Source: Escherichia coli O127:H6 str. E2348/69 (GTDB lineage: Bacteria > Pseudomonadota > Gammaproteobacteria > Enterobacterales > Enterobacteriaceae). Taken from it: DNA of 64,000 nt. Made by a program: the position numbers and the translations under genes. Shown in pieces: positions 16,202-21,358 of the stretch (its first letter is position 1; the number at the start of each line of letters is the position of its first letter). The notes beneath the pieces are model-generated. The model did not search any database. It saw nothing but the letters and a program-made list of their open reading frames with translations, and was not told where the DNA came from. The stretch is from NCBI RefSeq assembly GCF_000026545.1, contig NC_011601.1; one strand, given 5' to 3'.

Positions 16202-16322
16202 AACAAACTCCAGATAAGTGCTTTTTTATGATTACGCCACATCATAAAAAGAATAAAAAATATCGATTTATGTCGAGTCTATGCAAAAATGATATGGATT
16301 ACCGGATTGCGAGAGAGCGCTA

Positions 16323-18065: not shown

Positions 18066-19484
18066 TCAGACGCCGATATTTCTCAACTTTTCGCCTGCCA
18101 TCAGTTTGCGCTCGATATGTTCCAGCGTGACATTTTTGGTTTCCGGAATGAGCCAGAAAGTGATGCCCACAAACGCAATGTTCAGCGCAGTGTAGAGCCA
18201 GAACGTACCGGCAGCGCCAATGCTATCAAGCAGTGTCAGGAAGGTCGCGCCGATAATCATATTCGACACCCAGTTTGTCGTCGTTGAGCAGGTGATGCCA
18301 AAATCGCGGCATTTCAGCGGCTGAATTTCAGAGCACAAGATCCACACCACTGGCGCGGCGCTCATCGCATAACCGGCAATACACATCATCGTCATGCCAA
18401 CAGAGAGCCAGGACAAGCCACTGGAAGCCGTACCGTTATCAAACTGCATCAGGCAGTAACCCAGCACCAGAGTGCCTAACGCCATCACGCTGAAACCAAT
18501 TTTCAGAGCCGGCTTACGCCCTGCTTTATCTACCGTAAAGACCGCAATGAAGGTAGCGAACATAAAGGTCAGCCCCACGACCAGAGTCGCAATCATCTGT
18601 TGTTCTGTGGTCGTAAAGCCCGCCATTTTGAAGATACGTGGCGCGTAGTACATGATGATGTTCATACCGGTAAACTGCTGCATCGCCTGCAACAACATAC
18701 CGAGAAATACAGCACGACGGACGTTACGGTTGATCTTAAACAATGCCCAACCGCCCTGTTTTAACTTCAGGCTTTCACGAATTTCGTTGAGTTCTTCTCG
18801 CGCTTTTTCCGACGTATCGCGCAGCATACGCAATACTTCTTCCGCCTCAATATGACGCCCCTTTTCCGCCAGCCAGCGCGGGCTATTTGGCAGGAAGACC
18901 ACCAGAATAATCAGCAGAACTGCTGGTAAAGCAAGAACCCCCAACATTGCGCGCCAGTTACCGCTATAACTGAACGCTGTATCGGATAAAAACGCCAGCA
19001 CGATGCCGAGAGTGACCATCAACTGGTACATGCTGATCATCTTACCGCGAACGTTTTCACTTGCCATTTCAGAAAGATACAGAGGAGCGGTGTAAGACGC
19101 GATCCCGACAGCAATGCCCAGCACCACTCGAGCGGCGATTAACATCTCTACGCTGGTCGCAAAAGCGGACCCTATCGAGCCGAGCACAAACAGGATGGCC
19201 CCCGCCATCAGGCTGTATTTACGCCCCAGGCGGAACGACAGCCAACCATTAAACAGCGCACCAATTGCTGCGCCGAGCATCATGCTACTGACCACCCATT
19301 CCTGCAAACGACTGGTCAGCACAAAGTGATCGGTAATGAACGGCAACGCTCCGGCGATTACGCCGATATCAAGACCAAATAACAATCCTGCGACCGCAGC
19401 AGCTACCGAAACAAACATATTCATACGCCGCGTATCCCGCAGAGGACGTGGCGTTAAAGCAGATTCCGTATTGATAGTAACCAT
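18066..19484 (-). CDS. araE: arabinose:H+ symporter, MFS (472 aa)
   Basis: Track ORF 18066..19538 trimmed to internal Met [13 protein letters not shown] to give 472 aa; sugar porter family. Confidence 0.93.
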
Positions 19485-19559
19485 TTTTTCCTGCCAGCAG
19501 AGAGTAAGACATAGTGAAAAAATACGTGAACAATTCACACAGGTGTCAGGTCGGAAATA

Positions 19560-19740
19560 GCATAAATATGGATTAAATTGCTACGACATGTCGTTATGTG
19601 ATGGATATTCCAATTTTCAAATTAAGTTGAATTATTGAGATTATTATTAACTACCTAATTTTAAAGCAGATAAAATTCATAAAGTTCATCAATTGATAAT
19701 TGATATGGATTATTTCATAACCATGATATGGATTATGATG
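19560..19740 (-). promoter_or_regulatory. araE upstream region with three copies of ATATGGATTA (possible AraC half-sites)
   Basis: ATATGGATTA at about 19567, 19704 and 19727; the latter two are direct repeats about 23 bp apart, resembling AraC I1-I2 half-site geometry; coordinates approximate. Confidence 0.35.
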
Positions 19741-19762
19741 ATCTACAGGTATAAAAAACCCT

Positions 19763-19772
19763 GCCATGCGAC
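19763..19772. repeat. direct repeat GCCATGCGAC flanking IS copy 1 (second copy at 21323-21332)
   Basis: Identical 10-mer immediately outside both ends of the element; 9 or 10 bp may be true target-site duplication. Confidence 0.8.
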
Positions 19773-21322
19773 CTGTCTCTTGATCAGATCTCCTGATCAA
19801 GAGACTTCATCACCAGGTAACCCTCAACCATATCCTGAAGTCTGAACCAGCCATCCCACATGACTACCCAACCGGGGCGACCGGTGCGTTTGCTGTCATG
19901 CCATCGCCCCAGTTTCGCCAGTTTCAGACAGGCCCATTTCAGTGTCGGCATCTGTGACGGAAGCGGTTTTCCTTCCAGCTTAACCCACAGCAGTTTCCAC
20001 TCTGTCGGCGTCAGTATTTTCTCACAGCTGTCATTTTGTGTTTCTTCACTGATACCGCCCTGCCGCAGGCCCAGCACCCGCACCGCGATAAACGCCTTGA
20101 TAACCACCATGCGCTCGAGGTTATCCCGGGTCTGCATTCGCAGCGATTCCACACATGTACCACCACTTTTCCACGCCTTGTGGTATTCCTCTATCAGCCA
20201 GCGTCGCTCGTAATGGCTGACGATACGTCGCGCATCGGCGGCACTCGCCACTTTTTCTGACGTCAGCAGATGCCAGCAGGCGCCGTCCTCTGCCTGCTCC
20301 CGGCAACAGACATACGTGAGCGGGAGCGCCTGGCCGCTGTTGTCGGGATTTTTTATGCTGACTTCGCTGTAACTGATGAACATCCGGGCCTGGCGGGCTG
20401 CCCGCCCGCCTTTTTGCATCACATTCAGCGTGTGGCTTCCCGCGGTTGCCAGGACTTCCGGCAGTTCGAAGAGCTTGCCGGGTGCTTCTTCCAGCCGGCG
20501 ATTCTGTGCTGCACGCACCACGAAGCGCTGCCCGTGGCTGACTTTATAATGCAGGTAATGCCAGATATCCGCTTCCCGGTCACAGACAGTGATTACCCGT
20601 TTCTGTATCTCCCCCAGCCGTTCGGCCATGCGCTCCGAAGCCTGCTGCCAGCGGTAACTTTCTTTTTCTTCATAGGGACGTTCTTTTCGCTGGTGCTTAA
20701 CACCGTAGGTGTCCGTGGCACGACTCCAGCGCTGCTGTTCGATAAGACCGACTGGCAGGGCGCTGTCGGGGGCGTACATCAGGACAGAGTGAGCCAGCAG
20801 CCCGCGCGTCTTCGGGTTAGTGGTGGTATTCCCCAGGTCATCAGATGCCGTACTGTGACTGAAGTTAATGGTGGTGGTGTCTTCCAGCGCGAGGAGCAGC
20901 GGATGAGCCTCACATGCCCTTACAGTGGCGGTAAATCCGGCTTCGGCAATGGCTTGCGGGGACACAGACGGGTTACGTATCAGGCGGTACGCACCTTCAA
21001 CCTGAGCAGTGGACTGGGATGATTTCACAATAGAAAGACCTGCATGCTGAGCGAGAGAAGAGGCCAGTGACACAAGGCGTCGTGTACGACGCGGATCACC
21101 GAGACGGGCATGTCCAAACTGCTCGTTAGCCCATGAATAACAATCAGAAAGTACCATAACAGACCCGAAGAAAATGAAATATAAGAGAAGATCAACAGGT
21201 GAGGAAAAAGTTCAAAAAATCGCTGCCGGGGAGGAAGGAAACTACCGGATGGAAAGAGTCCCCCTAAAGCAGACTGACAGACATCACAAATCCCCGGGTG
21301 GGGATTTGTGTATAAGAGACAG
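19773..21322 (-). mobile_element. IS4-family, IS50-like insertion sequence, copy 1 (1550 bp)
   Basis: Termini CTGTCTCTTGATCAGATCT (left) and revcomp CTGTCTCTTATACACAAAT (right), matching IS50 inside and outside ends as I recall them; single 457-aa transposase ORF; flanking direct repeat; identical second copy at 43835-45384. Confidence 0.9.
19784..21157 (-). CDS. IS50-like (Tn5-type) DDE transposase (457 aa)
   Basis: Tn5 Tnp-like motifs LALEDTT, VCDREAD and YERRWLIEEYHKAWKSG (DDE triad and YREK signature); stop codon lies inside the left terminal repeat as in IS50. Confidence 0.9.
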   Translation of the reverse strand: MVLSDCYSWANEQFGHARLGDPRRTRRLVSLASSLAQHAGLSIVKSSQSTAQVEGAYRLIRNPSVSPQAIAEAGFTATVRACEAHPLLLALEDTTTINFSHSTASDDLGNTTTNPKTRGLLAHSVLMYAPDSALPVGLIEQQRWSRATDTYGVKHQRKERPYEEKESYRWQQASERMAERLGEIQKRVITVCDREADIWHYLHYKVSHGQRFVVRAAQNRRLEEAPGKLFELPEVLATAGSHTLNVMQKGGRAARQARMFISYSEVSIKNPDNSGQALPLTYVCCREQAEDGACWHLLTSEKVASAADARRIVSHYERRWLIEEYHKAWKSGGTCVESLRMQTRDNLERMVVIKAFIAVRVLGLRQGGISEETQNDSCEKILTPTEWKLLWVKLEGKPLPSQMPTLKWACLKLAKLGRWHDSKRTGRPGWVVMWDGWFRLQDMVEGYLVMKSLDQEI

Positions 21323-21358
21323 GCCATGCGACAGGGTCATAAAAGTAAGAGGAATGAA

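What the first reader, a model, noticed from the sequence alone, without database searches (positions are those of the whole stretch)
19560..19740. Three copies of ATATGGATTA upstream of araE
The decamer appears three times in the AT-rich araE leader/promoter region; two copies are direct repeats about 23 bp apart, the geometry expected for AraC I1-I2 half-sites. Coordinates are approximate, and which copies are functional cannot be decided from sequence alone.
Basis: inference. Interest (0 to 1): 0.3.

Follow-up and report, generated by a model that had tools for sequence, protein, structure and literature searches.

The report
AraC half-sites upstream of araE
The three repeats are real and each holds the core sequence read by the arabinose regulator AraC: one belongs to the ordinary araE activator site, and the other two form a conserved upstream pair that resembles the looping operator of the arabinose operon and is not described for araE in the papers I could read.

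Summary
Observation confirmed. ATATGGATTA occurs exactly at 19566-75, 19703-12 and 19726-35. Any 10-mer reaches three copies in only 6 of 20,000 local shuffles.

araE is on the minus strand. In its sense each copy reads TAATCCATAT and contains TCCATA, the AraC "B-box".

The activating I1-I2 site is the proximal copy, TAGCAATTTAATCCATA (19583->19567), plus a decamer-free I2 21 bp downstream, TGCTATTTCCGACCTGA, which overlaps the -35. Its geometry is base-for-base that of P_BAD: CRP TCACA->I1 29 bp, I1->CTGAC 23 bp.

The 23-bp pair lies 137 and 160 bp upstream of I1, has no TAGC box and cannot be I1-I2.

The pair is nevertheless deeply conserved:
- About 57 Enterobacteriaceae species keep two TCCAT(A) cores 23 bp apart (33 in one).
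- They sit 137-139 or 127-129 bp from I1.
- The DNA between is near random.

Genuine araO2, examined the same way in six genera, gives the same signature.

Best reading: araO2-like distal AraC half-sites at P_araE, probably looping to I1 without arabinose. Binding and repression are untested. Papers I could read mention looping only at araBAD/araC.

The parts
18066..19484 (-). araE coding sequence (arabinose-proton symporter), ATG at 19484-19482
   Evidence: ORF list. RefSeq annotation of the identical E. coli E2348/69 record.
19519..19524 (-). -10 hexamer TATTTT (inferred)
   Evidence: TAnnTT is invariant in 28 species (T267 A268 T271 T272 of alignment A2). The transcription start is not mapped here. 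It is inferred to lie at about 19512-19515.
19546..19562 (-). araI2-type AraC half-site TGCTATTTCCGACCTGA, overlapping the -35 (CTGACA, 19549->19544). It contains no decamer.
   Evidence: It lies 21 bp downstream of I1. It ends in ACCTGA, as does P_BAD I2 (TAGCGGATCCTACCTGA). I1 TCCATA->CTGAC is 23 bp in both promoters. CTGAC is invariant in 28 species.
19567..19583 (-). araI1-type AraC half-site TAGCAATTTAATCCATA. It contains decamer copy 1 (19566-19575).
   Evidence: Perfect TAGC-N7-TCCATA. K-12 has CAGC. AGC and TCCAT are invariant across 28 species. The geometry matches P_BAD I1. PMC2893085 treats I1/I2 and CRP operators as present in all four ara promoters, including ParaE.
19594..19615 (-). 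CRP-type site AATTGGAATATCCATCACATAA, centred at 19604.5
   Evidence: TCACA->I1 TCCATA is 29 bp, exactly as at P_BAD. TCCATCACA is invariant in the 28-species alignment, and AA..TCCATCACA is the consensus of the 57-species profile, whose TCCAT letters were used to pick the site.
19704..19720 (-). D2, distal AraC-type half-site TTATGAAATAATCCATA (B-box only). It contains decamer copy 2 (19703-19712). Its TCCATA lies 137 bp upstream of the I1 TCCATA.
   Evidence: TCCAT is invariant in 28 species (T82-T86 of A2). It is present at 137-139 or 127-129 bp from I1 in 57 species. There is no conserved TAGC box.
19727..19743 (-). D1, distal AraC-type half-site GATCATCATAATCCATA (B-box only). It contains decamer copy 3 (19726-19735). 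It lies 160 bp upstream of I1 and 23 bp upstream of D2.
   Evidence: TCCATA is invariant and the following T nearly invariant in 28 species (T59-A64, T65 of A2). D1-D2 spacing is 23 bp in 56 of 57 species and 33 bp in one. In many genera D1 reads ATTGTCCATAT, like araO2 CAATTGTCCATAT.
19753..19772 (-). Remnant of the kduD rho-independent terminator (right arm GGCAGGG plus T6), including one copy of the IS target duplication (19763-19772)
   Evidence: K-12 has the intact hairpin CCCTGCC-gcat-GGCAGGG followed by TTTTTT. The hairpin is conserved with covariation in other genera.
19773..21322 (-). ISEc13 (IS4 family) insertion. It is not part of the regulatory element but bounds it in this strain.
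   Evidence: Annotation of E2348/69. Ends and the 10-bp duplication GCCATGCGAC at 19763-19772 and 21323-21332.

Best explanation
All three decamers are AraC recognition cores (TCCATA, the B-box of a 17-bp AraC half-site) pointing in the direction of araE transcription.

(1) The proximal copy is the B-box of the araI1-type half-site of the ordinary araE activator site. With arabinose, an AraC dimer occupies I1 (19583->19567) and the adjacent weak I2 (19562->19546, overlapping the -35). Together with CRP bound just upstream (centre 19604.5), it activates transcription, exactly as at P_BAD.

(2) The distal 23-bp pair (D2 19720->19704, D1 19743->19727) is a conserved auxiliary operator made of two araO2-like half-sites that have a B-box only. 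Most likely, without arabinose one subunit of AraC sits on I1 and the other reaches back to D2 or D1, making a 137- or 160-bp loop that encloses the CRP site. That would keep AraC off I2, hold basal araE transcription down and keep AraC pre-positioned. Arabinose would release the distal contact and shift AraC to I1-I2.

Shown here: the sequence, the geometry and the deep conservation. Inferred: AraC occupancy of D1 and D2, looping, and repression.
For: Identity of the proximal site:
- Perfect TAGC-N7-TCCATA, followed at a 21-bp period by ...ACCTGA and CTGACA.
- CRP TCACA->I1 is 29 bp and I1->CTGAC is 23 bp, identical to the P_BAD region, whose sequence was verified 100% against E. coli genomes.
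- AGC, TCCAT, CTGAC and TCCATCACA are invariant in 28 species.
- I1/I2 and CRP operators are described for ParaE in PMC2893085.

Distal pair:
- In a MAFFT alignment of 28 species, the only invariant columns between the kduD terminator and the CRP site are TCCATA (D1) and TCCAT (D2).
- An alignment-free word count in 44 de-duplicated species ranks TCCAT first in the region -200..-61 from I1. It is present in 43 of 44, and at least twice in 40 of 44, against at most 3 of 44 in 2,000 shuffled sets.
- D1-D2 spacing is 23 bp in 56 of 57 species and 33 bp (23+10) in one.
- D2-I1 is 137-139 bp in 44 species and 127-129 bp in 13, while the 88-nt spacer has a median identity of 0.40 against 0.31 expected at random.
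- Neighbouring segments vary more freely: terminator to D1 is 17-100 nt.
- Every indel larger than 1 bp seen in the D1-I1 interval is 7-11 bp.
- The pair keeps its geometry relative to I1 even where the terminator is displaced, or where no kduD was found within 2.5 kb upstream (Phytobacter).

Positive control:
- Genuine araO2 in six genera is likewise an isolated invariant island (A.TTGTCCATAT) with no TAGC box. It has the same orientation as I1 and a fixed 211-212 bp distance across unconserved DNA.

Experimental precedent:
- In P_BAD sort-seq, the araO2 positions where any mutation raises expression are P43-P48. The validated mutants T43A, C45G, A46G and T47A fit the letters of TCCATA, and the paper places T47 in that motif.
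- Deleting araO2 raises basal level 5- to 30-fold (PMC11983282).
Against: - There is no binding or expression data for D1 or D2 here.
- The papers I could read attribute AraC looping and repression only to araBAD/araC and describe only activation at ParaE (PMC11983282, PMC10547716, PMC6018408).
- The pair has a 23-bp rather than a 21-bp period, and there are two half-sites where araO2 has one.
- B-box-only sites are expected to be weak.
- The D-I1 distances are near-integral helical turns only at 10.5 bp per turn (13.05-13.14 for D2). At the 11.1 bp per turn that I recall being measured in vivo for the ara loop, they are 12.3-12.4.
- About 7% of complete E. coli genomes carry a 7-bp deletion that changes D2-I1 from 137 to 130 bp, so the spacing is not absolutely fixed.
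- The short-spacing species may trace back to only a few indel events, so the two-class pattern is suggestive rather than statistically independent.
Confidence: 0.6

Rival explanations
1. The distal pair is bound in cis by one AraC dimer, like araO1 (two adjacent direct half-sites), and works without looping to I1. It could be a holding or reservoir site, a partner for cooperative dimer-dimer contact, or a roadblock or insulator just downstream of the kduD terminator.
For: There are two half-sites in direct repeat on roughly the same helical face: 23 bp is 2.07-2.19 turns, and 33 bp in one species is 2.97-3.14 turns. The 23-bp spacing is more strictly conserved than the distance to I1. The pair lies 17-20 nt after the kduD terminator T-run in 48 of 57 species.
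Against: The canonical cis spacing is 21 bp (a 4-bp gap, PMC11983282). Both sites lack the TAGC box that cis sites such as I1 and I2 keep. The distance to I1 is itself constrained to two narrow windows across near-random DNA, which a stand-alone site would not need. The terminator-to-D1 distance reaches 45-100 nt in Kluyvera and others without loss of the pair.
Confidence: 0.2
2. The conserved distal TCCATA(T) cores are recognised by some other protein, or serve kduD 3'-end formation, and only coincidentally match the AraC B-box.
For: No AraC binding data are available here. The sites lack half of the AraC half-site consensus. They lie next to the kduD terminator in most genera.
Against: The invariant letters are exactly those of the I1 core in the same promoter, in the same orientation. 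They are also the letters of araO2. The sites are downstream of the terminator T-run. They persist in Phytobacter, where no kduD was found within 2.5 kb upstream. Their spacing tracks I1, not the terminator. No Rfam family matches the region.
Confidence: 0.1
3. One reading: the two copies 23 bp apart are the AraC I1-I2 activator half-sites of araE.
For: They are direct repeats containing TCCATA with a spacing near 21 bp.
Against: A complete araI-type site with P_BAD-identical geometry lies 137 bp downstream, next to the -35. The pair is about 190-220 bp from the inferred start, does not touch a -35, has a 23-bp period and has no TAGC boxes.
Confidence: 0.02
4. The repeats are chance matches in AT-rich DNA with no function.
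For: The region is about 69% A+T. One more exact copy lies at 16292 in an unrelated control region.
Against: Local shuffles give p of about 3e-4. The cores are invariant across about 57 species while their flanks are near random.
Confidence: 0.01

Closest known systems
araO2-araI1 repression loop of the E. coli araBAD/araC control region
   Same: Both have a distal half-site with an invariant TCCATA(T) core and no TAGC box. Both have the same orientation as I1. Both keep a fixed distance to I1 across otherwise unconserved DNA. In both, the CRP site lies inside the would-be loop next to I1, and the I1-I2/-35 core is identical. D1 in many genera reads ATTGTCCATAT, as araO2 does.
   Different: araE has two distal half-sites 23 bp apart instead of one. 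The distances are 137/160 bp (or 127-130/150-153) instead of 211 bp. There is no divergent araC promoter and no O1 in between. AraC binding, looping and repression are demonstrated for araO2 (PMC11983282) but are untested here.
araI (I1-I2) activator site of P_BAD
   Same: The proximal decamer sits in a TAGC-N7-TCCATA half-site. An I2 ending in ACCTGA follows at a 21-bp period and overlaps the -35. The CRP site is at the same distance upstream.
   Different: Only one of the three decamers belongs to it. I2 at araE (TGCT ATTTCCG ACCTGA) has no decamer. The spacer between CTGACA and the -10 is 1 bp longer than in P_BAD.
araO1 (two adjacent AraC half-sites upstream of P_BAD)
   Same: Both are a pair of adjacent direct-repeat half-sites upstream of the CRP site. 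O1 also has a variant B-box (TCCACA), which is invariant in six genera.
   Different: From memory, the O1 half-sites have a 21-bp period, and O1 overlaps the araC promoter, which it represses. The araE pair has a 23-bp period and no promoter is known there.

Membership tests
AraC araI-type activator site (I1-I2) | 17-bp half-site with an A-box TAGC and a B-box TCCATA separated by 7 nt | tested here: met
   Proximal copy only: TAGCAATTTAATCCATA, 19583->19567. (T/C)AGC and TCCAT are conserved in 28 species. The distal copies have the B-box only.
AraC araI-type activator site (I1-I2) | Two direct-repeat half-sites separated by 4 bp (21-bp period), the promoter-proximal one overlapping the -35 | tested here: met
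   Met by I1 plus the decamer-free I2 (19562->19546). I1 TCCATA->CTGAC is 23 bp, as in P_BAD. The rule is taken from PMC11983282.
   The period is 23 bp. The pair lies 137/160 bp upstream of I1. No TAGC is conserved.
AraC araI-type activator site (I1-I2) | CRP site immediately upstream at the P_BAD distance | tested here: met
   TCACA->I1 TCCATA is 29 bp in both promoters. The site is invariant in the 28-species alignment.
araO2-type distal looping operator | Half-site with a conserved TCCATA core but no canonical TAGC box, in the same orientation as I1 | tested here: met
   D1 and D2 compared with araO2, GAAACCAATTG|TCCATA, in six genera.
araO2-type distal looping operator | Located more than 100 bp upstream of I1 at an evolutionarily fixed distance, with unconserved DNA between | tested here: met
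   D2-I1 is 137-139 or 127-129 bp in 57 species with spacer identity 0.40 against 0.31 at random. O2-I1 is 211-212 bp in six genera.
araO2-type distal looping operator | A single half-site | tested here: not met
   There are two half-sites 23 bp apart in 56 of 57 species. A single distal TCCAT appears only in more distant genera such as Franconibacter.
araO2-type distal looping operator | Repression depends on the helical phase between the operator and I1 | tested here: inconclusive
   All indels larger than 1 bp in the D1-I1 interval are 7-11 bp, and the distances fall in two windows about 10 bp apart. The events are few and not independent. The turns are integral only at 10.5 bp per turn.
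araO2-type distal looping operator | AraC occupancy without arabinose and AraC-dependent lowering of basal transcription | not testable with these tools
   This needs footprinting, ChIP-exo and reporter assays. The primary papers (Stoner & Schleif 1983; Stringer et al. 2014, PMC3911152) are not held.

The most novel reading that the evidence does not exclude
P_araE carries a previously undescribed two-half-site distal AraC operator, conserved across the core Enterobacteriaceae. Through 137/160-bp loops to I1 (alternative loops, or a double loop pairing D1-I1 with D2-I2 at 160 and 158 bp), it would set the basal level of the AraE transporter. That level would in turn set the threshold of the all-or-none arabinose response. 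Looping would then be a general feature of AraC promoters with P_BAD-type architecture rather than a peculiarity of araBAD/araC.
Probability: 0.35. Interest if true: 0.6.

Novelty: new member of a known kind. Interest (0 to 1): 0.4.

Why it matters
AraC and its araO2-araI1 loop are the textbook case of gene control by DNA looping. P_BAD with AraE is also one of the most widely used inducible expression systems. Every paper I could read treats araE as simply activated by AraC.

A deeply conserved O2-like operator pair at araE would mean that the transporter gene, which closes the positive feedback behind all-or-none induction, is also held down by apo-AraC. It would also offer a natural second loop, of different length and with two distal half-sites, on which to test the light-switch model.

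The practical consequence concerns engineered P_araE fragments that omit the region 137-180 bp upstream of I1. They may differ from the native promoter in leakiness.

The proximal site itself is ordinary and already known.

Tried and rejected
Literature
- Stringer et al. 2014 (PMC3911152), Johnson & Schleif 1995 and 2000 (PMC177046, PMC101909) and Carra & Schleif 1993 (PMC413173) are not held. Stoner & Schleif 1983 is not in the library.
- Full-text searches for araE combined with footprint, looping, half-site or araO2, and for the sequence strings themselves, found no description of distal AraC sites at araE.
- This is absence from an incomplete library, not proof of novelty.

Technical dead ends
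- The first anchor regex had the wrong gap and matched almost nothing. It was fixed.
- My guess of the K-12 araC coordinates hit thiP/thiB. It was replaced by a BLAST with the recalled P_BAD sequence.
- P0004 (Pluralibacter AraC) is not on record.
- A purely I1-anchored information profile blurs the distal sites because the spacing classes are mixed. It was replaced by word enumeration.

Ideas considered and rejected
- The fourth decamer (16292) as an AraC site: it lies inside a different conserved block, CCATATCATTTTTGCATAGAC, in the lysA-lysR control region. Its TAAT part is not conserved and one species lacks TCCAT.
- A promoter on the + strand through the repeats: the consensus hits are at chance level (3 found, 2.6 expected).
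- A known RNA element: no Rfam match at E <= 1.
- The 50-aa ORF at 19693-19845: it runs into the IS, so the same reading frame cannot exist in genomes without the insertion.

Full report
**What is in the sequence**

The decamer ATATGGATTA occurs exactly at 19566-19575, 19703-19712 and 19726-19735 on the + strand. A fourth copy lies at 16292-16301. Whole-window shuffles give 0.07 expected matches. The two distal copies are part of a 13-bp exact direct repeat with a 23-bp period. Because the region is AT-rich, I repeated the test on the 288 bp between the araE ATG and the IS junction. Only 6 of 20,000 dinucleotide-preserving shuffles contain any 10-mer three or more times. The observation and its coordinates are therefore confirmed.

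**Context**

The window is 100% identical to E. coli E2348/69. araE lies on the minus strand, with its ATG at 19484-19482. Its upstream region therefore runs toward higher coordinates, and the decamers must be read as TAATCCATAT. In K-12 and in nearly all 5,423 E. coli genomes with a match, the 290 bp upstream of araE continue directly into the kduD terminator and kduD. In this strain an ISEc13 element (19773-21322) has inserted into the loop of that terminator, leaving all three repeats intact.

**The proximal copy is the ordinary activator site**

In the araE sense, the proximal copy is the 3' part of TAGCAATTTAATCCATA (19583->19567). This is a perfect TAGC-N7-TCCATA AraC half-site. Twenty-one bp downstream lies TGCTATTTCCGACCTGA (19562->19546), whose end overlaps the -35 (CTGACA). 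Immediately upstream is a CRP-type site, AATTGGAATATCCATCACATAA.

I verified my recollection of the P_BAD control region against real genomes: 100% identity over 296 nt in 5,397 genomes. I then compared the two promoters. CRP TCACA->I1 TCCATA is 29 bp in both, and I1 TCCATA->CTGAC is 23 bp in both. PMC2893085 treats I1, I2 and CRP operators as present in all four ara promoters including ParaE, and prints the P_BAD I1-I2 sequence. PMC11983282 states that AraC activates from direct repeats separated by 4 bp. So decamer copy 1 is the B-box of araI1 of P_araE, and its partner I2 contains no decamer. This part is already known biology.

**The distal pair is not I1-I2**

The TCCATA cores of the distal pair lie 137 bp (D2) and 160 bp (D1) upstream of the I1 core. 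That is roughly -190 and -215 from the start site, which I infer from the conserved -10 hexamer TATTTT at 19524->19519. The period is 23 bp, not 21. Neither site has a TAGC box: D1 has GATC and D2 has TTAT at those positions.

**The distal pair is nevertheless functional DNA**

I retrieved araE loci from 80 species representatives. In a MAFFT alignment of the kduD-araE intergenic region from 28 species of more than 15 genera, the invariant islands are:
- the stem of the kduD terminator (conserved in structure, with covariation);
- TCCATA (D1);
- TCCAT (D2);
- the CRP site, including TCCATCACA;
- (T/C)AGC-N7-TCCAT (I1);
- CTGAC;
- TAnnTT (-10).

Between the terminator and the CRP site, the only invariant columns are the eleven of D1 and D2.

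I then anchored all loci on I1-I2 alone. D1-D2 is 23 bp in 56 of 57 species and 33 bp in one. D2-I1 is 137-139 bp in 44 species and 127-129 bp in 13 (Klebsiella, Raoultella, Kluyvera, Phytobacter). Meanwhile the 88-nt spacer has a median ungapped identity of 0.40, against 0.31 expected from composition. Adjacent segments are freer. Terminator to D1 ranges from 17 to 100 nt, and -35 to ATG is 58-62 nt, with one species at 76.

An alignment-free, motif-blind word count in 44 de-duplicated species ranks TCCAT first in the region -200..-61 from I1. It is present in 43 of 44 and at least twice in 40 of 44, against at most 3 of 44 in 2,000 shuffled sets. The only competing word is the terminator T-run.

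The pair tracks araE rather than kduD. It keeps its geometry relative to I1 where the terminator is 45-100 nt away, and in Phytobacter, where no kduD was found within 2.5 kb upstream. Only TCCATA(T) is conserved. The extra identical letters that make the E. coli decamer and 13-mer are lineage-specific.

**Positive control**

To see what a genuine AraC looping operator looks like under the same treatment, I collected araC-araB intergenic regions from Klebsiella, Enterobacter, Cronobacter, a Cedecea/Dryocola genome and Buttiauxella and aligned them with E. coli. araO2 appears as an isolated invariant island, A.TTGTCCATAT. It has no TAGC box (GAAA or GGCA at those positions), the same orientation as I1, and lies 211 bp from I1 (212 in Cronobacter). 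About 100 nt of unconserved DNA separates it from O1. That is the signature of D1 and D2. In many genera D1 even reads ATTGTCCATAT.

There is experimental precedent. In P_BAD sort-seq, the araO2 positions where any mutation raises expression are P43-P48. The validated mutants T43A, C45G, A46G and T47A fit the letters of TCCATA, and the paper places T47 in that motif. The authors also cite a 5- to 30-fold rise in basal level when araO2 is deleted, and an affinity order of I1 > O2 > I2 (PMC11983282).

**Helical phase**

At 10.5 bp per turn, O2-I1 is 20.1 turns, D2-I1 is 13.05-13.14 turns (12.1-12.3 in the short class) and D1-I1 is 15.2-15.3 turns. At 11.1 bp per turn, the in vivo value I recall for the ara loop, O2-I1 is 19.0 turns but D2-I1 is 12.3-12.4. 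Absolute phase is therefore ambiguous.

The pattern of change is more telling. Every indel larger than 1 bp in the D1-I1 interval is 7-11 bp:
- -9 to -11 bp in the short-class genera;
- +10 bp between D1 and D2 in one Raoultella genome;
- a 7-bp deletion (one copy of a TATCAAT tandem repeat) in E. coli SFE8, which keeps D2 intact and moves D2-I1 from 137 to 130 bp.

That E. coli allele is carried by about 350-370 of 5,423 genomes, roughly 7%. The events are few and phylogenetically linked, however, and the polymorphism equally shows that spacing is not rigid. I rate this test as inconclusive.

**Mechanism**

I commit to the following. P_araE has the P_BAD core (CRP, I1, I2/-35) plus a distal operator of two O2-like half-sites. 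Without arabinose, AraC most likely bridges I1 and D2 or D1, forming a 137- or 160-bp loop with the CRP site inside. This would lower basal araE expression and keep AraC in place. Arabinose would shift AraC to I1-I2, and CRP would help open the loop.

The sequence, geometry and conservation are shown here. AraC occupancy of D1/D2, looping and repression are inferred. My probability estimates:

| Claim | Probability |
|---|---|
| The proximal assignment (copy 1 = araI1 B-box) | about 0.95 |
| D1/D2 are functional AraC sites | about 0.75 |
| Loop-mediated repression specifically | about 0.45 |

**Known or new**

The papers I could read ascribe looping and repression to araBAD/araC only and describe activation at ParaE. 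None links an O2-type site to araE. The decisive primary sources are not held, so prior description cannot be excluded. I file the distal pair as a new member of a known kind: an araO2-type operator at a second AraC promoter. It differs from araO2 in being double and in giving shorter loops. I file the proximal site as already known. Interest is moderate. It concerns a textbook system and is easy to test, but it does not change a paradigm and may already be recorded somewhere I could not read.

Noticed in passing
window 19763-21332: ISEc13 (19773-21322; transposase 19784-21157, minus strand) has ends that resemble Tn5/IS50. The near end is CTGTCTCTTGATCAGATCT, like the inside end, and the far end is ...TGTGTATAAGAGACAG, like the outside or mosaic end. 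It is flanked by a 10-bp duplication, GCCATGCGAC. It sits in the loop of the kduD terminator, so neither flank keeps an intact hairpin. kduD, the transposase and araE all read the same way, so read-through into the araE control region is possible. Only 3 of 5,426 E. coli genomes share this junction.
   Followed up: partly
window 16292-16301: The fourth exact copy of the decamer lies in the lysA-lysR intergenic region, 22 bp before the lysR ATG. It shares the 12-mer TAATCCATATCA with the distal araE sites. In other genera the conserved block there is CCATATCATTTTTGCATAGAC, the TAAT part varies and one species lacks TCCAT. It therefore looks like part of the lysA/lysR control region and an unrelated match.
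   Followed up: yes
window 19597-19605 (minus strand TCCATCACA): A fourth TCCAT lies inside the spacer of the CRP site, 33 bp upstream of the I1 TCCAT. It is invariant in the 28-species alignment and is present at that distance in every species profiled. The CRP consensus does not explain conservation of these spacer letters, and P_BAD has CGGCG at the same place. It could be an AraC contact, a bending requirement or something else.
   Followed up: no
L090 (E. coli SFE8) against window 19696-19702: A 7-bp deletion polymorphism removes one copy of a TATCAAT tandem repeat just promoter-side of D2. It is carried by about 7% of complete E. coli genomes and shortens D2-I1 from 137 to 130 bp while leaving D2 and the 23-bp pair intact.
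   Followed up: partly
hit H42 (E. coli 2017.17.01CC): In this genome the match to the distal region stops right after D2 and resumes elsewhere (two places in the record). This suggests an insertion or rearrangement between D2 and the CRP site.
   Followed up: no
alignment A2 columns 38-57 (window 19753-19772 and K-12 L001): The kduD rho-independent terminator is conserved as a structure across genera, with compensatory changes in the stem (CCCTGCC/GGCAGGG, CCTCTGC/GCGGAGG, CCCCGCC/GGCGGGG). It usually ends 17-20 nt before D1.
   Followed up: no
loci L062-L065 (Cedecea, Franconibacter and others): More distant genera keep an I1-I2 core. They show a distal TCCAT at 150-151 bp (132 bp in one), without a partner 23 bp away. 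Cedecea has a second one only 6 bp from the first. This is closer to the single-half-site araO2 arrangement. Erwinia, Mixta and Tatumella loci did not match the anchor at all.
   Followed up: partly
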